Origin: an uncultured virus (IMG/VR IMGVR_UViG_3300038461_000154)
Lineage: Duplodnaviria > Heunggongvirae > Uroviricota > Caudoviricetes
DNA: 64,000 bases
IMG/VR virus record: IMGVR_UViG_3300038461_000154
Reading direction: 5' to 3' (one strand)
Shown: piece by piece, positions 8,433 through 52,869 of the stretch
Layout: each line of letters starts with the position of its first letter
Numbering within the stretch: position 1 is the first letter of the stretch
Position numbers and translations under genes: made by a program
The notes under the pieces: generated by a model
Told to the model about the DNA's origin: nothing
Databases searched by the model: none
The model's input: the letters and a program-made list of their open reading frames with translations, nothing else

Positions 8433-9410
8433 GTGCGGCTGAATGAGATAGGTTTTTATACCTTAAACGATGAGAGAGCGCAGAACATAAGCACAAGTTC
8501 TCCTCTTTGGAGAGCCTGTTTTTTAGTAACTTCTCGTTGTAATTTTTCTTGTGCCTATTGCAACGGTCTTAGTTGTGACAAAGACCTAGACTTCGATGTT
8601 TTCAAAACCATTCTGGCTGATATGTGTAATAACCACAGTCTCAAGAACATCCGTTTTTCAGGAGGTGAACCAACACTTCATCCCCAACTTTTAGATATGG
8701 TCAAAGAAGCGCGCAGCTATAAGTGCATTGACAGAATTGCTGTCTCCACTAACGGTTCTGCCGATTTGAATTACTACAAACAAATCATAGCTGCCGGTGT
8801 AAATGACTTCTCCATTTCTTGTGATACGTGTGACTCAGTTGTGGGCAGAGAATTAGCCGGTTGTCAAGATACTACGTGGCACAAAGTCATTTCTAATATC
8901 ACAGAGTTGAGTAAGCTGACGTATGTGATACTTGGCATTACCATCAATGAAAAGAACTGCCACAACATAAAACAGATTCTTGAATTTGCCGATTCCCTTG
9001 GTGTGGCAGATATGAAACTATCTACTTCAACCCATTGGAACAAGCCAATCCCGAACCTTGAAACCATACCCGAACAAATACTTAATAGGCATCCGATTTT
9101 GAAGTACCGCGTTTCACACTTCAAGAAAGGGCGTAATGTACGTGGCTTGACAGAACATGATTGCCATAAATGCTTGTTAGTACAAGATGATATTATCATT
9201 GTGGGTGATAAGCATTACGCCTGTATCGTTCAAGCCCGCGAAAGGGCGTCTGCTATTGGAAAACTAGCCTCAGTTGCTCAAATGCGCAAGGAACGCTTAG
9301 AATGGGCTATGGCGAGAGATACCTTTGAAGACCCTGTTTGTAAGCATTTTTGTATGGATATTTTCATTGACTGCAACAATAGGATTTGCGAACTTCAAGG
9401 AAAAGTTTAG
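8433..9410 (+). CDS. Radical SAM protein (MoaA-like core)
   Basis: CxxxCxxC (CNFSCAYC), FSGGEP, STNG; extra C-terminal Cys. Confidence 0.9.
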   Translation: MRLNEIGFYTLNDERAQNISTSSPLWRACFLVTSRCNFSCAYCNGLSCDKDLDFDVFKTILADMCNNHSLKNIRFSGGEPTLHPQLLDMVKEARSYKCIDRIAVSTNGSADLNYYKQIIAAGVNDFSISCDTCDSVVGRELAGCQDTTWHKVISNITELSKLTYVILGITINEKNCHNIKQILEFADSLGVADMKLSTSTHWNKPIPNLETIPEQILNRHPILKYRVSHFKKGRNVRGLTEHDCHKCLLVQDDIIIVGDKHYACIVQARERASAIGKLASVAQMRKERLEWAMARDTFEDPVCKHFCMDIFIDCNNRICELQGKV

Positions 9411-11811: not shown

Positions 11812-11900
11812 GTGAACTACGACAAATTAATTACTACGTCGCTTCTTCTCTTCACAGGGCTTAGTTGACTACCTAAATCCCTCCGAGAAGCTTTGTTTAT
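11812..11900 (-). ncRNA. TnpB omega/reRNA scaffold, 3' part (5' end undefined)
   Basis: Over 50 nt identical between the two tnpB copies at the CDS end; hairpin before the right end. Confidence 0.65.
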
Positions 11901-13010
11901 CCTCTGTCCGCATTCCAGCAGATGGAGTAATGCAAATTGTTTGATATTCTTAGCTGCATTCACATCCCTATCATGTTTGGCACCACAAATAGGGCAAATC
12001 CATTCTCTCTGGTTTAAAGTCAATTGGTTATTCACAAAGCCGCAATTAGAACACATCTTAGACGAAGGCTCAAATCGGCCTATCATTAGAATGTTCTTGC
12101 CATACCAATCAGCCTTGTATTCTAACTGCCTCCTGAACTCAGACCATGCTATATCAGAGATGAATTTTGCTAAACAATGATTTTTGAGCATGTTGCCTAC
12201 AGCAAGGTCTTCCAAACAAATAGATTGGTTCTCTCTTATCAGTTTAGAAGATGCCTTGTGCAAGAAATCTTTTCTTTGGTTTTTAATCCTTTCGTGTATG
12301 AGAGCTAGTTTTAGTTTTTGTCTCGCGTAATTTTTACTGCACTTTTTCTTTTTGCTTAACTTGCGTTGATGATGTTTTACCCTTTGTTCTCTGCTTTTTT
12401 TGAATTCGGGGTTATAAATTTTATTACCGTCAGAAGTAATACAAAAATCTTTAATTCCAAGGTCTAAACCTATTGTCTTATTTGGATTGACTTTTGGCTT
12501 ACTAGGCAATTCTCTACTATTATCCACAAGAATAGAAACGAAATATTTACCAGTGGAAGTTTTGTTTACCGTTGTGGTTTTAATAGTGCCTTCAAACTTG
12601 CGATGAAGAATAGCTGGTATATTTGGAAGTTTAGGCAAAGTAATCAAGTTATTATCGAAGTCAACTCTAACAGCTTGCGGACATTGGAACCTACGAACTG
12701 AACGACTCTTCGATTTGAATTTGGGGAAAGCAGTTCTCTTTTGAAAGAATGAAGTAAAAGCATTGTCTAAGTTTCTTAATGGCATTTGGAGAGATTGCGC
12801 ATTGACTTCTTTTAACCAAGGATTTTGTTCTTTTAACTCTGGCAACTGATTCATCAAAGTCATGCAAGTGAGTTTTTTACCTTGGCTATGAGCTTTTATA
12901 CGTTGTTCAAGACCCCAATTATAGATGAACCTTGAACACCCAAAATGTTGTTCCATAAGAGCCTTCTGAGGCTCGGTTGGATAAATCTGGTATTTATAAG
13001 CCTTTAACAT
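11817..13010 (-). CDS. tnpB: RNA-guided endonuclease TnpB
   Basis: N-terminal KAYKYQIYPT HTH; RuvC D (GLDLG), E (LEDL), D (DRDVNAA); CSNC/CPIC zinc finger. Confidence 0.95.
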   Translation of the reverse strand: MLKAYKYQIYPTEPQKALMEQHFGCSRFIYNWGLEQRIKAHSQGKKLTCMTLMNQLPELKEQNPWLKEVNAQSLQMPLRNLDNAFTSFFQKRTAFPKFKSKSRSVRRFQCPQAVRVDFDNNLITLPKLPNIPAILHRKFEGTIKTTTVNKTSTGKYFVSILVDNSRELPSKPKVNPNKTIGLDLGIKDFCITSDGNKIYNPEFKKSREQRVKHHQRKLSKKKKCSKNYARQKLKLALIHERIKNQRKDFLHKASSKLIRENQSICLEDLAVGNMLKNHCLAKFISDIAWSEFRRQLEYKADWYGKNILMIGRFEPSSKMCSNCGFVNNQLTLNQREWICPICGAKHDRDVNAAKNIKQFALLHLLECGQRINKASRRDLGSQLSPVKRRSDVVINLS

Positions 13011-13137
13011 AATTTGTTTCCTACACAATCATTGTACACTCTGTAGTTATAAAATATCAAAAAATTATGAAAATTAACTTTTTTCAATAGAAAAATGGAA
13101 AAATTACGATACATTAGTGGCACAAGGAGGCTGGAAC

Positions 13138-37524: not shown

Positions 37525-37612
37525 GAACTACGACATCCTAATTGTTACATCGCTTCTTCTCTTCACAGGGCTTAGTTGACTACCTAAATCCCTCCGAGAA
37601 GCTTTATTTATC
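37523..37612 (-). ncRNA. TnpB omega/reRNA scaffold, 3' part
   Basis: Block identical to copy 1 at the CDS end. Confidence 0.65.
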
Positions 37613-38721
37613 CTCTGCCCATGTTCCCATAGGTGGAGTAATCCGTATTGTTTAATGTTTTTGGCCGCATTAACATCTCTATCGTGTTTGGCACCACAAA
37701 CAGGGCAAATCCATTCTCGTTGGTTTAAAGTCAAAGTATGGTTGGCATACCCGCAATTAGAACACATTTTAGATGAAGGTTCAAATCGGCCTATCGTCAA
37801 TATGTTCTTACCGTACCAATCGGCTTTGTACTCTAATTGTCTTCTAAATTCAGACCAAGCTGCATCAGAAATGGACTTGGCCAAGCAATGATTTTTGAGC
37901 ATGTTACCTATAGCCAAATCTTCCAAACAGATAGATTGGTTCTCTCTTATTAGTTTGGTAGAAGTTTTATGCAGGAAATCTTTTCTTTGGTTTTTAATCC
38001 TTTCATGTAAGAAGGCCAGTTTAAGTTTTTGTTCTGCATAATTCTTGCTGTACTTTTTCTTTTTACTTAGTTTTCTTTGATGATGCTTTAATCGTTTTTC
38101 AGCAGTTTTTAAATGCTTTGGATTTTCTGTTTTATCGCCGTCAGAGGTAATACAAAAATCTTTGATGCCAAGGTCTAATCCTATAGATTTAGATGGATTC
38201 ACTACTGGCTTTTGAGGAAGCTCCTTGCCGTCTTCAACAAGAATAGATACAAAATATCGGTTTGTTGAAGTTCTGTTTATCGTAATAGTTTTAGCAATGC
38301 CTTCAAATTTCCTATATAAGACAGCAGGTATATTTGGAATTTTAATAAGTGTAATTGTGTTGTTTTCAAAATCAACTTGAACATGCTGCGGACATTGAAA
38401 TTTAGGACGTGAACGATGCTTCGATTTAAACTTTGGAAAACCAGCTTTTTTATTGAAGAACAAGGTGAAGGCATTATCAAGATTTCTTAATGGCATTTGG
38501 AGAGATTGGCTATTTACTTCTTTTAACCATGGATATTGTTCTTTAAGTTGGGGAAGAAGATTGGCAAGGTCAATACAAGAAAGCTTTTTGCCTTGACTAT
38601 GAGCCTTAATACGCTGTTCCAAACCCCAATTATAAATAAATCTTGAACAACCGAAATGTTGTTCTATGATAACTTGTTGAGGCTCTGTAGGGTATATTTC
38701 GTACTTGTAAGATTTTAACAT
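37528..38721 (-). CDS. tnpB: RNA-guided endonuclease TnpB
   Basis: RuvC D/E/D intact (GLDLG, LEDL, DRDVNAA); zinc finger; 397 aa like copy 1. Confidence 0.95.
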
Positions 38722-46084: not shown

Positions 46085-46436
46085 GGCTCTTTTGCCTTTC
46101 TCCTAACTCCTTGCTTTTCTGACAGGCCAATTCAAACGAAGAACCTATCGCCTTGTATATATCGTTAGGATGATAACCTTCTTTAAACAATTTTTCACCA
46201 GAATAATGCCACTCTTCTGCTAGTTCATGACATTTCTTACAAAGTGTTGCACCGTTTTCCTTTACAGAACCACCAGCCATAATTGAGCGGTCCATGATGT
46301 GATGCGCGTCAAGTTCTTCTTTGGCTTTTTCTGGTGACGAAACGAAACCACACTTCACGCAACGGTATTTATCACGACTGAAAACAGCGTATCTAAAGTT
46401 GTTTCTGATTTGTTTTTTCGTCTTAGAGATATCCAT
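46071..46436 (-). CDS. HNH endonuclease
   Basis: VFSRDKYRCVKCG...LDAHHI...NGATLCKKCH. Confidence 0.85.
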   Translation of the reverse strand: MDISKTKKQIRNNFRYAVFSRDKYRCVKCGFVSSPEKAKEELDAHHIMDRSIMAGGSVKENGATLCKKCHELAEEWHYSGEKLFKEGYHPNDIYKAIGSSFELACQKSKELGERQKSRGDI

Positions 46437-48613: not shown

Positions 48614-48871
48614 TTAGGTAGATTTTAAGTTTACAGCATGTTCCACATCATAAGGGCAGCATTCAGGCGGATTTCTGTAGCGGCTTGTATATTCATCTCT
48701 CATATTATCATCAAAGAGCGTTTTTGTCATAACCCAAATATTGTAACACTCTTGAATCTTCTTAGCTTTATAAATACACCATATTGTGCCTTGTTTATCC
48801 CATTTATGTTGGTCTATGGTAAGGCCATTTATCTCATAGCATTTCTTACAAACTATAAGGGAAAGAGGCAT
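48614..48871 (-). CDS. MLNK/CPYxLE family member
   Basis: LIVCKKC...PPECCPYDVEH. Confidence 0.85.
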   Translation of the reverse strand: MPLSLIVCKKCYEINGLTIDQHKWDKQGTIWCIYKAKKIQECYNIWVMTKTLFDDNMRDEYTSRYRNPPECCPYDVEHAVNLKST

Positions 48872-49186
48872 TTAATCACACCCTTGGTTAACGAGTTGTT
48901 CCAAAGGATATTGGCAATGCTTTGGTATTTCTACTTGACGAATGTTTTTTGGCATCCATCTTGTTTCATTGTGTATTATCTTCGTATCAAGAACTTTTCT
49001 TCCAAAGTTCTGATACGGGCATGGCACAAAGTGTGGGAAAATAGCAATCTCAAGCCATTCATCCAATTCGGTGTCAAATCTTTTTGCTGCATTCTGATGC
49101 CACTGATACCACGCAGACGACTTACAATGTTCGCGGATACACTTTTTACAAATAGGAATGTTAAACTTAAATGGTTGCTTTAGCAT
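48872..49186 (-). CDS. MLNK/CPYxLE family member
   Basis: PICKKC...PKHCQYPLEQ. Confidence 0.8.
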   Translation of the reverse strand: MLKQPFKFNIPICKKCIREHCKSSAWYQWHQNAAKRFDTELDEWLEIAIFPHFVPCPYQNFGRKVLDTKIIHNETRWMPKNIRQVEIPKHCQYPLEQLVNQGCD

Positions 49187-49584
49187 TCTTGATGCACCAA
49201 CTGTTCTAACATATACTCACAATGAACCGGAATTGAATCTCCATCTATTTGCCGTTGTGACATTGATGACACACTCACCCTATGCCAAGCGTCTAGCTCG
49301 TATTCTACCAAACTACCAAATGTAATGTACGGACAAGGATAAACACTTTTTTCCCACCATCGCTGTAACCAAATCTCAAAAGTGCAGTTAGAATTGAACT
49401 GCAACTTGATGGTTTCTTTTCTGTCGGTTGGAAAACGAGAGCCATAATCTGTCAAACAAGGATTAATTAAATAAGGATTATTTGGGCTAAGAGAAAACCA
49501 ACCTTTCATAGATAAGGTATCACTTGCCAACTTCTGGCTTAAATGTTCATGCAAACATTTTTTACAAATTACAAGATTTATCAT
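49180..49584 (-). CDS. MLNK/CPYxLE family member (long insert)
   Basis: MINLVICKKC...PVHCEYMLEQ. Confidence 0.8.
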   Translation of the reverse strand: MINLVICKKCLHEHLSQKLASDTLSMKGWFSLSPNNPYLINPCLTDYGSRFPTDRKETIKLQFNSNCTFEIWLQRWWEKSVYPCPYITFGSLVEYELDAWHRVSVSSMSQRQIDGDSIPVHCEYMLEQLVHQEC

Positions 49585-49775: not shown

Positions 49776-49818
49776 CTCTTGAACATTCTCCTTATCTATG
49801 CAGCACCTTAAAACAAAC

Positions 49819-50075
49819 AGCCCCTTCCCCTGCCTTCCAATGCGTTACTTTCCAGTGCTTTCCAGTGCTGTTCCCTTCCGCTCCCATTCACTTCAATGGG
49901 GAACTACGAATCTGGAAAAATGGCCTTTCCTCTCCGATAGCGTCCTTTCATATCCATTGCTCTCCTCTACCTTGATTGCATTCAACAACAATTACAAATC
50001 TGAAAAGAGCCTTCCCTTTCGGTCCTGTGCATTGCTCTCATCTCCACTTCCATAACATTGCTTTCCCTTACTTCC
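49819..50075 (-). ncRNA. Array of three (GNA-NN)n pentamer tracts, candidate guide RNAs
   Basis: Tracts about 50008-50075, 49923-49984, 49819-49896; linkers CAGATTTGTAAT (49991-50002) and CAGATTCGTAGT (49903-49914). Confidence 0.75.
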
Positions 50076-50127
50076 ATTTTATACAGAAACAACCAATAGT
50101 TATGAAGACTTTTCGGTATAATCTTGT

Positions 50128-50889
50128 ATGGACTTGACACCGTTCCTAGACAAAATCATCTGTGCCGATTGTAAAACAGTCTTGCCTGATATCCCAAGCG
50201 AGTCAGTAGATTTGACTGTGATTGACCCGCCTTATTTCGGCGTCACTAAAGAAGAATGGGATGTAGAGGCTTTAGACGAAAATCTTGTCAAAGAACTGCA
50301 TCGTATCCTTAAACCCACCGGCAACATTTACATTTGGTGCGGCATTGGTGAAAAATCCCAAAGTCTCATACGATGGTTTCCATTGTTCTCTAAATTGTTT
50401 CACTTCAAAGACTTAATCACATGGAAGAAAAATCGCGGTATAGGAATGCGGAAAGGCTGGCTCTATACGCGAGAAGAGTGTATGTGGTTTGTCAAAGACA
50501 ACAGCCAATTCGTCTGGAATGTTGCGGAACAATACAGTACCGAAAAGCGGCCTTGGAACGTCTATAAAAAAGGCGGGGCAATGGTCAACAAATCTGAATT
50601 TAAACGTTTTACAAATGTGTGGACAGATATCAACGAAGTTGGCTTTGGCACCTGTCCTAAAAAATATCATCAAGAACGTTGGAAGTTTAACCACTTCACA
50701 CCAAAACCAGTTGAAGCCATAGAACGCATCATAAAACTGCATACAAAAGAAGGCGATGTGGTACTTGATTGTTTTTTGGGAAGTGGAACAACAACAGTAG
50801 CGGCTAAGACTTTAAACCGCCACTACATTGGTATCGAAAAAAATCCTGAATACTGCAAAATAGCTCAACAAAGAACTGAAGAAAGTTAA
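50128..50889 (+). CDS. DNA N6-adenine/N4-cytosine methyltransferase, beta class
   Basis: DPPY before HFTPKP and VLDCFLGSGTT...YIGIE. Confidence 0.92.
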   Translation: MDLTPFLDKIICADCKTVLPDIPSESVDLTVIDPPYFGVTKEEWDVEALDENLVKELHRILKPTGNIYIWCGIGEKSQSLIRWFPLFSKLFHFKDLITWKKNRGIGMRKGWLYTREECMWFVKDNSQFVWNVAEQYSTEKRPWNVYKKGGAMVNKSEFKRFTNVWTDINEVGFGTCPKKYHQERWKFNHFTPKPVEAIERIIKLHTKEGDVVLDCFLGSGTTTVAAKTLNRHYIGIEKNPEYCKIAQQRTEES

Positions 50890-51136
50890 CCCTTTCAATG
50901 CTCTACAATCCGCTCCTTTACATTGCTCTTCTCTTCAGTCCTCTCCGTTGTTGACTACAAATCTGATTAAAAACCTTTTCCTTACAATCCACTCTGTTAC
51001 TTTGCTTTGCTTTACGGTCCTCTCCTTTTATTGACTGCGAATCTGATAAATAGCCTCTTCCTTCCAATCCTTTACAGTCATATCCACTAGGCATCCGTTT
51101 CTTTCCATTTGTTTCCATTACCATCCACTGCAATCC
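50889..51136 (-). ncRNA. Array of three (GNA-NN)n pentamer tracts, candidate guide RNAs
   Basis: Tracts 51053-51136 (16 units), 50973-51025 (10), 50889-50946 (11 perfect); linkers CAGATTCGCAGTC (51033-45) and CAGATTTGTAGTC (50953-65). Confidence 0.8.
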
Positions 51137-51138
51137 TC

Positions 51139-51345
51139 TTATTTATTGCATGGAATGGGCTTTAATTTGGAAAGCCGTACAATTGAATCAAGTTGTTTCT
51201 TTACTTCTTTTGGAGATTTATAGACCATAGCAGAGCAGATTAAAATTCCGTTTCCATCACGCAAAGTAACGTTTTCAAGATTCCAAACACCATCAGGAAC
51301 AACTGCCATTCCAACAACAAGACGGTTTAATTTTAGTGTTTCCAT
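51139..51345 (-). CDS. Hypothetical protein in the RAMP-like operon
   Basis: RBS GAGGAGG. Confidence 0.7.
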   Translation of the reverse strand: METLKLNRLVVGMAVVPDGVWNLENVTLRDGNGILICSAMVYKSPKEVKKQLDSIVRLSKLKPIPCNK

Positions 51346-51356
51346 CTTACCTCCTC

Positions 51357-51620
51357 TTAACCTTGTGCGCCAGTGTTGCCAGTGCCTTGAATCTTGTATG
51401 GCTTTAAAAACACTCTCAAAAATTCCACGTCAAAATCAGCAATATCAACTAAAAGCATTTGTTCTTTGCTTAATGGAGTTGCACCACCGCTAAAACCAGT
51501 TCCATCATTGCGTGACCCTTGGTTGTACACCATGTGCCCTTTGTAAAAAACTTCTGTTTCCACGCAATTTGGATTGACCACAATACGAATTTCACCAAGA
51601 TGTGGCTTGCGGGACTTCAT
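51357..51620 (-). CDS. Hypothetical protein in the RAMP-like operon
   Basis: ATGA overlap with upstream gene. Confidence 0.65.
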   Translation of the reverse strand: MKSRKPHLGEIRIVVNPNCVETEVFYKGHMVYNQGSRNDGTGFSGGATPLSKEQMLLVDIADFDVEFLRVFLKPYKIQGTGNTGAQG

Positions 51621-52120
51621 TTTTTATTTTCCAATTGCGGCTGATTATGTTTTCCAGAGAGTGCCAAAATGCCCATTGCTTGTCTGCGGATAGCTTTTTC
51701 CAAAGAAAATTGGCTCTCTGCTGTAAGATGATTCCGGTCAATCTCGCATGTTCTGGCGTGGTTGCCGATGTAGCGAGTGACGATTTTTGCTTCTCTGAAC
51801 TCACGGTATTGTAACGCTTGTTCATCAGTCAAACAGCACAAATCGCCCCGGATTACACGGCAAGTAAGAGGTTGGCTCCTATCGGCAAAATAAGACTCTA
51901 CACGCTTGGCCAACAACATGGATTCAAACCTATATTCAGGTTGCTCCACTTGAAAACCAAACATCTTCTCCAAGTAGGATGCAGGAACAGTAGCACCCTT
52001 GTAGAGCTTATCAAATTCAATGGAATACTTCTGTAGCGACACTGGCACTACAGGGGTAATCGAAGTCTCTGTCTGTGTTCCAGTTACATTAATATCAACG
52101 TCTGGTTGACTCACATCCAC
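51617..52120 (-). CDS. Hypothetical accessory protein downstream of the RAMP-like gene
   Basis: RBS AGGAGG; 167-aa ORF. Confidence 0.75.
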   Translation of the reverse strand: MDVSQPDVDINVTGTQTETSITPVVPVSLQKYSIEFDKLYKGATVPASYLEKMFGFQVEQPEYRFESMLLAKRVESYFADRSQPLTCRVIRGDLCCLTDEQALQYREFREAKIVTRYIGNHARTCEIDRNHLTAESQFSLEKAIRRQAMGILALSGKHNQPQLENKK

Positions 52121-52140
52121 CTCCTGTTTATACCAAAACT

Positions 52141-52785
52141 CTATTTATTTTGTAGACTGAGAGATTCAGTCTCACTAATAACACCAGCGCCTTCCTTATA
52201 GCGAACATGCTCTGCTTTTTCGATTTTGAAAAGCCCGTATCTCGGACGCCAATCGCTCAAGCCGATGAATCTTCCTGCGTTCTTTGCCGCTTCAAGAATT
52301 TGGTTGAATTCTATGACATCCGGCAAGAAGTTAATGGTCAACGTGGCAGACCACGAATGGAAAATTGGACGAGTACGCATAATTCTAGAACGATTGATGA
52401 CAACACCAGTCGTCAAACGGAAATTAAGGTTCTCGAAAAGTTGTTTGGAATTCTTTGGACCTTCATACTCCAAAAGAGTATCTTCACAAAGAATGCCGGT
52501 TGTGGCTTGAACACCTAGACGATTTCTTTTCGCGCCTGCCACAATCATTGCCTGAATGTTATCATCAGGCCAGATTACTTGGCTCTTTTCATTCAAGTAC
52601 AACGAACCTTCATGTTCGATTCGCGCCATATCTTCATGGTCTTTGTCTGTCTTCTTTCTCTTTGATGTTATTTCCTTGAGTTTCTTTGAGTAAACATCAA
52701 GAGGATTTGCCAAGCGCCCGTTGTGTTGAATGGTAGGTGTCATGCCCGTGATGCGAATGATGGCCATATCGTAGCCCGGTATCAT
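52141..52785 (-). CDS. Stand-alone RAMP/Cas7-like protein (Vipr-like candidate)
   Basis: IRITGMTPTIQH (beta1-TP), VIWPDDNIQAMIVAGA (P-helix), C-terminal Gly loop AGRFIGLSDWRPRYGLF; RBS AAGGAGG. Confidence 0.65.
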   Translation of the reverse strand: MIPGYDMAIIRITGMTPTIQHNGRLANPLDVYSKKLKEITSKRKKTDKDHEDMARIEHEGSLYLNEKSQVIWPDDNIQAMIVAGAKRNRLGVQATTGILCEDTLLEYEGPKNSKQLFENLNFRLTTGVVINRSRIMRTRPIFHSWSATLTINFLPDVIEFNQILEAAKNAGRFIGLSDWRPRYGLFKIEKAEHVRYKEGAGVISETESLSLQNK

Positions 52786-52813
52786 CTTCTTCCTCCTTTT
52801 TGAGAGAAAACGA

Positions 52814-52852
52814 ACCTCTCCCTTGCCTTGCCTTCGGTTGCCTTCCAAGTCC
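52814..52852 (-). repeat. Short (GNA-NN)n tract in the 5' leader of the RAMP-like gene
   Basis: GGA AG GCA AC CGA AG GCA AG GCA AG GGA GA GGT then T-run. Confidence 0.7.
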
Positions 52853-52861
52853 CATTCTGCG

Positions 52862-52869
52862 ATTATACA
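52862..52869 (-). promoter_or_regulatory. Sigma70-type -10 box (TG-TATAAT) for the RAMP-like operon
   Basis: Perfect TATAAT just upstream of the leader tract. Confidence 0.6.

What the first reader, a model, noticed from the sequence alone, without database searches (positions are those of the whole stretch)
49819..52869. Candidate RNA-guided system: stand-alone RAMP/Cas7-like gene plus arrays of 5-nt-period (GNA-NN)n RNAs
Seen: on the minus strand a TATAAT promoter (52862-67) heads an operon of a leader tract, a 214-aa gene, three small genes and three non-coding tracts. Three more tracts lie beyond an inverted MTase. The tracts have strict period 5. For example 50946->50889 reads GGA GA GGA CT GAA GA GAA GA GCA AT GTA AA GGA GC GGA TT GTA GA GCA TT GAA AG GGT: 11 of 11 units are G-N-A plus a free dinucleotide, and every tract differs. 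Knowledge: the protein has RAMP-like landmarks (beta1-TP, P-helix, C-terminal Gly-rich loop), and Cas7-type RAMPs polymerise on RNA with a fixed period. From memory, recently described phage VIPR systems pair such a protein with GGY/NN RNAs. Inference: this is a VIPR-like programmable system with a different fixed triplet (GNA, mostly GGA/GCA/GTA/GAA), with no CRISPR repeats, Cas1/2, Cas5/6 or nuclease in the locus.
Basis: partly seen in the sequence, partly recalled or inferred. Interest (0 to 1): 0.95.

Follow-up and report, generated by a model that had tools for sequence, protein, structure and literature searches.

The report
Phage VIPR system, G-x-A guides
A peat phage carries a genuine VIPR system, a CRISPR-related RNA-guided DNA silencer first described in 2026, whose guide RNAs fix only G and A in each five-base step and leave the base between them free instead of using the published GGY.

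Summary
The 214-aa gene is a true Vipr. It matches SUSP1 Vipr (PDB 36pp) at E 1.2e-29 over its full length, and its model has a Cas7 (Csm3/Cmr4) fold. Seven period-5 tracts on its strand are its vrRNA candidates: one leader, three behind the operon and three beyond an inverted methylase.

VIPR is already in print as 2026 preprints, and this scan has met variants on other DNA, so the kind is known.

What differs is the anchor, G-x-A rather than GGY.
- **Position 3:** A occurs in 13 of the 148 related sources with tracts. It tracks a Gly-to-Ser change in the G-loop: Ser 9 of 9 A, Gly 0 of 107 A. Only 2-3 independent events support this.
- **Position 2:** it is free. Against a relative with a 92% identical Vipr, it differs in 28 of 62 units. 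That is like 4-fold sites (133 of 361) and far above the guide letters (19 of 124).

No targets were found, and transcription is unshown beyond one weak RNA contig.

The parts
52862..52867 (-). -10 box TATAAT preceded by TG, heading the operon
   Evidence: Read directly. It is conserved in L162. The consensus scan did not call it, because there is no good -35.
52802..52851 (-). T0, the leader vrRNA candidate: 7 pentamers at 52851-52817 (5 conform to G.A..), then a tail GGTTCGTTTTCTCTC
   Evidence: In L162 the only changes within its units are three GCA to GTA changes at position 2.
52141..52785 (-). vipr, 214 aa, a Cas7-like RAMP
   Evidence: phmmer against PDB 36pp_D (SUSP1 Vipr) gives E 1.2e-29, residues 9-190 against 5-189. 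phrog_4652 matches at E 2e-49. The AF2 model has pLDDT 92.6. Foldseek top hits are Cmr4/Csm3/Cas7-11, E 6e-6 to 4e-4. 265 homologs were found.
51617..52120 (-). orf167, a candidate vipr-accessory gene (vap)
   Evidence: Homologs lie directly downstream of vipr in L141, L055, L011, L031, L001, L034 and L015 (E 7e-13 to 3e-6; alignment A2). It has no Pfam, PHROG or PDB family. The fold has no clear match: Foldseek E is at least 0.5 with winged-helix proteins among the weak rows, and VIA matches only the helical hairpin.
51357..51620 (-). orf87, a small gene of unknown role
   Evidence: ORF. Conserved in L162 at 71% aa identity. No family found.
51139..51345 (-). orf68, a small gene of unknown role
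   Evidence: ORF. Conserved in L162 at 62% aa identity. No family found.
51031..51136 (-). T1, a vrRNA candidate that is a deletion fusion: 9 units, a phase break, 6 units, then a tail GGCTATTTATCAGATTCGCAGTCAA
   Evidence: L162 holds about 103 extra bases here that make two separate vrRNAs. A 183-nt metatranscriptome contig is identical to 51045-51227.
50947..51025 (-). T2, a vrRNA candidate: 10 units (9 conform) plus a tail GGTTTTTAATCAGATTTGTAGTCAA
50860..50946 (-). T3, a vrRNA candidate: 11 of 11 G-N-A-N-N units. Its tail runs antisense into the 3' end of the methylase gene.
   Evidence: The tract ends at the methylase stop codon.
50128..50889 (+). Inverted N6/N4 DNA methylase that splits the arrays. 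It is a neighbour and is not shown to belong to the system.
   Evidence: PF01555, E 4.9e-43. It sits at the same place in L162 at 92.8% aa identity.
50076..50085 (-). TGTATAAAAT, a second -10-like box similar to the operon's TCTGTATAAT, heading T4-T6
   Evidence: Read directly. Partly conserved in L162. Function is inferred.
49985..50075 (-). T4, a vrRNA candidate with internal phase breaks (about 5 + 7 units) and a tail GGCTCTTTTCAGATTTGTAATTG
49900..49970 (-). T5, a vrRNA candidate: 9 units (7 conform) plus a tail GGCCATTTTTCCAGATTCGTAGTTC. A hairpin CCCATT/AATGGG follows at 49900-49883.
   Evidence: In L162 the hairpin stem is kept and the loop is changed.
49795..49883 (-). T6, a vrRNA candidate: 12 units plus a tail GGGCTGTTTGTTTTAAGG
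   Evidence: 6 of its 9 differences from L162 are at position 2.

Best explanation
This is a VIPR system (Viral Interference Programmable Repeat) of an uncultured peat phage. It has one vipr gene, a conserved accessory gene, two small genes, and seven vrRNA candidates in two transcription units split by an inverted methylase.

By homology with SUSP1 VIPR, one Vipr protomer should bind each five-base unit of a vrRNA. Three bases would be flipped into protein pockets and the last two presented for pairing with DNA, skipping every third target base. The result would be silencing of a competing mobile element.

The peculiarity here is the anchor. G1 is kept. Position 3 is A instead of a pyrimidine. 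Position 2, the essential G2 of SUSP1, is free and most likely unread, so each unit is G-x-A-N-N.

- **Shown here:** the homology, the fold, the tracts, their family-wide association with vipr, and the pattern of constraint per position.
- **Inferred:** RNP formation, the skip rule, silencing, and the targets.
For: **Protein**
- It matches SUSP1 Vipr (PDB 36pp_D) at E 1.2e-29 over the full length.
- The residues the cryo-EM paper names are conserved in that alignment: H17, D177, R138, W178, R179, K33, R39 and K82 correspond to H21, D178, R139, W179, R180, K37, R43 and K86 here.
- The AF2 model has pLDDT 92.6, and the top PDB folds are Cmr4, Csm3 and Cas7-11.

**Family**
- 148 of 161 sources scanned (160 homolog loci plus the window) have period-5 tracts. 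Their consensus on the vipr strand is mainly GGYnn (72), GGCnn (46), GGcnn (40), GGnnn (35) and GGAnn (24).
- The Felixounavirus wV8 locus serves as a positive control. It shows GGT-NN units and a hairpin tail.

**Architecture**
- One leader plus downstream arrays matches the published SUSP1 layout.

**Constraint**
- The comparison is with L162, a syntenic relative whose Vipr is 92% identical.
- Over 62 aligned units, differences per position are: position 1, 8; position 2, 28; position 3, 2; position 4, 8; position 5, 11.
- 4-fold sites in 8 neighbouring genes differ at 133 of 361.
- Position 2 against 4-fold sites gives p 0.26. Positions 4+5 are below 4-fold sites at p 6e-6. Position 2 is above positions 4+5 at p 2.5e-5.
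- So the anchors and the guide letters are under selection, and position 2 is not.
- The vipr gene itself is conserved: 92% aa identity while 28% of its 4-fold sites differ.

**Position 3**
- The residue aligned with SUSP1 G176 is Ser in 9 loci, and all 9 have A. It is Gly in 107 loci, and none has A.
Against: - No target was found for any tract under any skip rule in the sequences I held. These were the window, L162, 160 homolog loci and the wV8 locus, and no hit rose above shuffled guides.
- Transcription is not shown. The only RNA evidence is one 183-nt contig at depth 2 from a metatranscriptome library, and it could be DNA carry-over.
- The tails have a shared sequence motif but no predicted conserved hairpin or pseudoknot like the SUSP1 tail, and there is no Rfam match.
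- In SUSP1, GGY>GAY and GGY>GGA guides were among the substitutions whose perturbation abolished silencing. This protein must therefore read its anchor differently, yet R139 and W179, the counterparts of the G2 contacts, are unchanged. I found no residue that explains the free position 2. L185, in place of a 90% conserved Arg, also occurs in loci with strict G2.
- T1 and T4 have phase breaks, so some guides may be damaged.
- The Ser-A association rests on only 2-3 independent events, and the sign test cannot reach significance.
Confidence: 0.85

Rival explanations
1. Position 2 is a third guide letter. It would read the target base that SUSP1 skips, which is usually a codon's wobble base, so that each unit reads three consecutive DNA bases and the code becomes contiguous.
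For: - Position 2 takes all four bases: A .22, C .18, G .35, T .25 over 65 units.
- It changes between the window and L162 while the adjacent NN letters stay. Tracking a target's fast-changing wobble base would give the same picture.
- A rate equal to the synonymous rate fits this reading as well as neutrality does.
Against: - In the solved SUSP1 complex, G2 faces the protein, and the skipped target base is extruded into a separate pocket.
- The contacts for both are conserved here (R139, W179, K37).
- G is still the commonest base at position 2 in the window and in L162 (26 of 50). That looks like decay from an ancestral GGA, the form used by most A3 relatives.
- The three-letter rule found no better hits than shuffled guides, though the search space was tiny.
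Confidence: 0.07
2. The arrays are decaying leftovers. Loss of G2 and the phase breaks would mark guides that no longer load onto Vipr.
For: - T1 is a deletion fusion of two guides.
- T4 has phase breaks in both phages.
- G2 is needed in SUSP1.
Against: - G1 and A3 differ in only 10 of 124 sites against 133 of 361 at 4-fold sites (p 7e-11). The NN letters are also constrained.
- Decay would hit all positions alike.
- vipr and orf167 are intact and conserved.
- The free position 2 is shared by both phages.
Confidence: 0.05
3. The tracts act as DNA or as something other than guides, for example protein-binding repeats, a coding repeat, or a regulatory leader.
For: A 71-aa ORF at 50918-51133 overlaps T1-T3.
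Against: - That ORF is an accident of the purine-rich repeat and has no start-site support.
- Equivalent tracts flank vipr homologs across 148 of 161 sources.
- Such tracts were shown to be RNAs bound to Vipr in SUSP1 and P. fulva.
Confidence: 0.02

Closest known systems
VIPR type II, Escherichia phage SUSP1 and the Pseudomonas fulva prophage (bioRxiv 10.64898/2026.04.26.720920; structures 10.64898/2026.04.26.720927; PDB 36pp)
   Same: - A homologous Vipr protein (E 1.2e-29) with the named RNA and DNA contact residues kept.
- Five-base units with two variable letters.
- One vrRNA ahead of vipr and arrays behind the accessory gene.
- A fixed tail after each tract.
- Phage-borne.
- 6-12 units per guide here, against 9-16 published.
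   Different: - The anchor is G-x-A, not GGY.
- The tail is a short sequence motif (GGYYnTTTT..CAGATTyGyAGT) without the predicted pseudoknot.
- The accessory gene is not similar to the gene at the vap1 position in the Felixounavirus wV8 (E 1.3).
- Two extra small genes are present.
- An inverted methylase splits the arrays.
- I could not assign a type. That needs the paper's tree and data S4, which I did not see.
VIPR systems with alternative repeats NNNGG, YNNNG and NNNNG (methods of 10.64898/2026.04.26.720920)
   Same: They show that the anchor can depart from GGY within the VIPR family.
   Different: In the paper's notation this locus is ANNGN, with a fixed G and a fixed A separated by a free base. 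That form, and ANNGG for its GGA relatives, is not named in the text I could read. The logos of fig. S17 are images that I could not see, so they may show it.
CRISPR type III backbone subunits Csm3 / Cmr4 (Cas7 RAMPs)
   Same: The fold matches: Foldseek E 6e-6 to 4e-4, TM about 0.45-0.53. Polymerising on a guide RNA with a fixed step is established knowledge of Class 1 effectors.
   Different: - Sequence identity is only 8-13%.
- No CRISPR repeats or other cas genes were seen in the locus ORFs I scanned.
- The step is 5 nt, not 6.
- The guide is written in a gapped code.

Membership tests
VIPR (Vipr + vrRNA) | Protein homologous to an experimentally characterised Vipr | tested here: met
   phmmer against PDB 36pp_D 'SUSP1 Vipr protein', E 1.2e-29, 182 of 214 residues aligned.
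VIPR (Vipr + vrRNA) | RAMP fold with an RRM core, a G-loop and a thumb | tested here: met
   AF2 pLDDT 92.6. Top folds are Cmr4, Csm3 and Cas7-11. The G-loop GLSDWRPRYG aligns with SUSP1 GVGDWRPRFG.
VIPR (Vipr + vrRNA) | Residues that hold G1 and G2 and clamp the DNA (H17, D177, R138, W178, R179, K33, R39, K82, K88) | tested here: met
   8 of 9 are kept: H21, D178, R139, W179, R180, K37, R43, K86. K88 is V92 here.
VIPR (Vipr + vrRNA) | Tandem five-base repeats beside vipr, on its strand, with fixed and hypervariable positions | tested here: met
   Seven tracts. The same holds in 148 of 161 sources scanned (160 homolog loci plus the window).
VIPR (Vipr + vrRNA) | GGY as the fixed part of each unit | tested here: not met
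   Over 65 units, position 1 is G at .91, position 2 is A .22 / C .18 / G .35 / T .25, and position 3 is A at .82. The paper allows 'a related consensus'.
VIPR (Vipr + vrRNA) | An invariable 3' tail after each tract, structured in the SUSP1 clade | tested here: inconclusive
   A sequence motif is shared among T1, T2, T4 and T5, and more loosely by T0, T3 and T6. No conserved fold is predicted.
VIPR (Vipr + vrRNA) | A vipr-accessory (vap) gene next to vipr | tested here: inconclusive
   The orf167 family lies directly downstream of vipr in 7 other loci. It has no similarity to the wV8 gene at the vap1 position and no clear fold match.
VIPR (Vipr + vrRNA) | Tracts transcribed into roughly 100-nt RNAs that co-purify with Vipr | not testable with these tools
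   The only evidence is one 183-nt contig from an RNA library, identical to 51045-51227.
VIPR (Vipr + vrRNA) | Natural DNA targets that match the NN letters with one base skipped | tested here: inconclusive
   No hit rose above shuffled guides in about 1.3 Mb of held sequence. Public collections were not searched with derived patterns.
CRISPR-Cas type III (Cas7 backbone) | A CRISPR repeat-spacer array and partner cas genes (Cas10, Cas5, Cas6, small subunit) | tested here: not met
   None are among the ORFs of 46-57 kb or the proteins scanned. The repeats are pentamers, not repeat-spacer units.

The most novel reading that the evidence does not exclude
In this lineage the middle anchor base has been freed from the protein and recruited as a third guide letter that reads the base SUSP1 skips. 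The VIPR code would then become contiguous: three DNA bases read per five-base unit, or 33 rather than 22 specified bases for an 11-unit guide. My data cannot separate this from neutrality, because a letter that tracks a target's wobble base would also change at the synonymous rate.
Probability: 0.07. Interest if true: 0.8.

Novelty: new variant of a known kind. Interest (0 to 1): 0.45.

Why it matters
VIPR is a months-old class, and its rules come from two closely studied type II systems that need GGY. This locus and its relatives show three things.
- The anchor is evolvable inside the same protein family. A replaces the pyrimidine together with a Gly-to-Ser change in the G-loop.
- Position 2 can be G, C, G/T, or any base.
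- A natural system keeps its guides under selection with only two fixed letters per unit.

That gives concrete, testable leads for how Vipr reads its anchor. It also suggests a route to mutually orthogonal VIPR tools, in which protein and guide pairs do not cross-load. Finally, callers that look only for GGY or YNNGG repeats will miss such arrays.

Tried and rejected
- **Whole genome.** None is held for this window, so there was no own-genome target search.
- **Target search.** I scanned the window, L162, 160 homolog loci and the wV8 locus under five rules: NN, xNN, xxNN, xxxNN, and position 2 + NN. Nothing rose above shuffled guides, and the only perfect hits were the guides themselves under xxxNN. 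I did not search IMG/VR, metagenomes or GTDB genomes with guide-derived patterns, because that needs typing a changed sequence. Targets therefore stay open.
- **Determinant of the free position 2.** The listed contact sites are identical to those of L020 and L034, which have strict GGA. L185, in place of a 90% conserved Arg, also occurs in L044, L049 and L126, which keep G2. No determinant was found.
- **Phylogenetic control of the Ser-A link.** It gives only 2 pairs on supported branches, or 3 on all branches. That tree used 77 of 154 distinct proteins: all 14 A3 rows, all 18 other non-Gly rows, and 45 of 102 Gly rows picked at random. The G-loop column was not removed. In a FastTree of all 154 proteins, the A3 loci fall in 7 groups with weak deep nodes.
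- **orf167.** There are no Pfam, PHROG or PDB sequence hits. Only 2 close homologs came from the word index. The Atlas lists only viral hypothetical clusters. Foldseek E is at least 0.5, and VIA reaches Z up to 7.9 on the generic helical hairpin only.
- **RNA and signals.** Rfam gives no match. The consensus promoter and terminator scan gives nothing above shuffles.
- **Sequencing runs.** The DNA contigs of three peat runs are identical to the window, so there is no population variation to use. The RNA run's other piece, at 50764-50797, runs on into unlike sequence.
- **Earlier notes of this scan.** None exist on this genome.
Full report
**What is there.** On the minus strand a TATAAT box (52867-52862) is followed within about 10 bases by a short purine-rich tract (T0). 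After it come a ribosome site and a 214-aa ORF (52785-52141), then ORFs of 167, 87 and 68 aa and three tracts (T1-T3, 51136-50860). An N6/N4 DNA methylase gene lies inverted at 50128-50889 (PF01555, E 4.9e-43). Its stop codon abuts the end of T3. Beyond it, a second TGTATAAAAT box heads three more tracts (T4-T6, 50075-49795).

**Is the rhythm real.** I counted G.A.. units in every run of ten consecutive pentamers, in all five phases and on both strands.
- Runs with 7 or more occur only on the minus strand between 49809 and 51146. Four runs score 10 of 10.
- The plus strand never exceeds 5.
- A detector that assumes no motif asks for at least 2 fixed and at least 2 variable positions over 9 units. 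It finds five tracts in the locus and one stray hit at 46334-46382.
- T3 is 11 of 11 perfect units.

The period is not strict everywhere. T1 and T4 break phase, T0 has 5 of 7 conforming units, and a few units have T, C or A at position 1.

**The protein.**
- It has no Pfam family but matches phrog_4652 at E 2e-49. 265 homologs exist in public data, mostly unnamed.
- Against PDB sequences it matches 36pp chain D, 'SUSP1 Vipr protein', at E 1.2e-29, residues 9-190 on 5-189.
- The AlphaFold2 model from 30 sequences has pLDDT 92.6.
- The Foldseek PDB copy ends on 2026-04-08 and so lacks 36pp. In it the best folds are Cmr4, Csm3, type VII Cas7 and Cas7-11 (E 6e-6 to 4e-4, TM about 0.45-0.53).

**What is in print.** I read three preprints.
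- *bioRxiv 10.64898/2026.04.26.720920* (outline, the whole Results, passages of the methods and legends, and the text of the PMC supplement PDF). It describes VIPR: a Vipr RAMP plus vrRNAs made of GGY/NN units with a fixed 3' tail. The NN letters pair with DNA while every third target base is skipped. SUSP1 has one vrRNA upstream and three downstream. Perturbing the GGY motifs abolishes silencing, and the constructs listed include GGY>GAY and GGY>GGA. There are seven types, 'or a related consensus', and the methods name the alternative repeats NNNGG, YNNNG and NNNNG.
- *10.64898/2026.04.26.720927* (outline and part 1 of the Results). It gives the contacts. G1 is held by H17 and D177. G2 sits between R138 and W178. 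Y3 lies in a narrow pocket made by E71, M72, R179, C173 and T175. K33, R39, K82 and K88 contact DNA.
- *10.64898/2026.10.15.759431* (search listing and passages). It shows that SUSP1 VIPR acts against a phage satellite.

In the alignment this protein keeps H21, D178, R139, W179, R180, K37, R43 and K86. The Y3 pocket differs: E71/M72 become D75/N76, C173 becomes I174, and the G-loop Gly before the Asp is Ser177.

**The family carries the tracts.** I fetched 80 IMG/VR loci and 80 GTDB genome loci around homologs.
- 148 of 161 sources (the window included) have period-5 tracts.
- With the two most variable adjacent positions placed at 4-5, the consensus on the vipr strand is GGYnn in 72 tracts, GGCnn in 46, GGcnn in 40, GGnnn in 35 and GGAnn in 24, plus rarer forms.
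- The Felixounavirus wV8 locus, from SUSP1's genus, shows GGT-NN units with a hairpin tail. It serves as a positive control.

This fixes the register of the window's units as G1-x2-A3-N4-N5.

**Position 3.** A dominates (0.68 or more) in 13 of the 148 sources with tracts, the window included.
- After I dropped 6 sources whose register was unclear, the residue at window position 177 sorts them as follows: Ser, 9 of 9 A; Gly, 0 of 107 A (106 pyrimidine, 1 other); Cys, 3 A, 19 pyrimidine and 1 other; Phe, 1 A.
- The link is striking in raw counts but thin in independent events. On an IQ-TREE quick tree of 77 of the 154 distinct proteins, Ser arises 3 times. Only 2 supported pairs (3 in all) can be formed. 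All go the same way, which cannot reach significance.
- In a FastTree of all 154, the A3 loci fall in 7 groups with weak deep nodes.

**Position 2.** In most A3 relatives it is G (GGA-NN). L055 uses GCA-NN (C .83), L015 uses G/C, and L007 uses G/T. The window is the most relaxed of all: A .22, C .18, G .35, T .25 over 65 units.

One metagenome contig, L162, carries a Vipr that is 92% identical. It is syntenic across 8.6 kb at 76-82% DNA identity. Aligning the arrays gives 62 gap-free units.
- They differ at position 1 in 8 units, position 2 in 28, position 3 in 2, position 4 in 8 and position 5 in 11.
- 4-fold degenerate sites of eight neighbouring genes differ at 133 of 361.
- By Fisher tests, position 2 is no different from 4-fold sites (p 0.26). 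Positions 4+5 are lower (p 6e-6), positions 1+3 lower still (p 7e-11), and position 2 is higher than positions 4+5 (p 2.5e-5).
- L162 shares the relaxed position 2: G 26, C 10, T 8, A 6 of 50 units.

So the two anchors and the two guide letters are under purifying selection, and the middle base drifts. The same alignment shows that the window's T1 is a fusion. L162 has about 103 more bases there that make two guides, which explains the phase break.

**Accessory genes and tails.**
- The orf167 family lies directly downstream of vipr in 7 other loci (L141, L055, L011, L031, L001, L034, L015). More distant or differently placed hits occur in L030 and L094.
- It is not similar to the wV8 gene at the vap1 position (E 1.3) and has no family or clear fold.
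- Weak Foldseek rows include winged-helix proteins. That would suit a DNA-binding vap but proves nothing.
- Tails share GGYYnTTTT..CAGATTyGyAGT without a predicted conserved structure, and Rfam finds nothing.

**Context.**
- The window has phage-like content: an HNH endonuclease, fn3 tail-like proteins and many small orphan ORFs.
- The locus is held by 8 peat-metagenome DNA runs at half or more of its sampled words. Two of these may be the source.
- One metatranscriptome contig of 183 nt is identical to 51045-51227. It spans the end of orf68 and T1. This is a weak hint of transcription only.

**Targets.** None were found in the roughly 1.3 Mb I held, under five pairing rules with shuffled controls. 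The published systems also show no self-targeting. Searching public collections needs guide-derived patterns, which I did not type.

**Verdict.** This is a real VIPR system and a new variant of a known kind. This scan has already met VIPR variants on other DNA, including GAY-NN, xGC-NN and GY-NNN (unchecked notes). The points worth keeping are the G-x-A anchor, the neutral-like middle base, and the Ser-A covariation.

Noticed in passing
window 11817-13028 (-) and 37528-38721 (-): Two paralogous genes of about 400 aa match phrog_506 'transposase' (E 5e-130 and 1e-132). They look like IS200/IS605-type OrfB/TnpB genes inside a phage-like region.
   Followed up: no
window 48614-49584 (-): Three adjacent small ORFs of 85, 104 and 134 aa just downstream of the T6 array share an N-terminal I/V-C-K-K-C motif and further Cys/His residues. 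They look like a tandem paralog family of small zinc-finger-like proteins with no family hit.
   Followed up: no
window 50860-50891 against 50128-50889: The tail of T3 is antisense to the last codons of the inverted methylase gene. The array and the methylase converge with no gap, and L162 has the same arrangement.
   Followed up: partly
L055 1196-1970; L015 3836-5034: Relatives have other anchors. L055 uses GCA-NN almost exclusively, and L015 mixes GCA and GGA units within one guide.
   Followed up: partly
L028 1898-2000; L079 566-702: Some homolog loci also carry a tract written on the strand opposite to vipr (the CC-form on the vipr strand), upstream of the gene.
   Followed up: no
window 8433-9410 (+): A radical SAM domain protein (phrog_13987, E 1.3e-14) lies in the phage-like region.
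   Followed up: no
window 49883-49900 (-): A hairpin CCCATT-GAAGTG-AATGGG lies between the T5 tail and the first unit of T6. In L162 the stem is kept while the loop changes. It may be a processing or boundary signal.
   Followed up: partly
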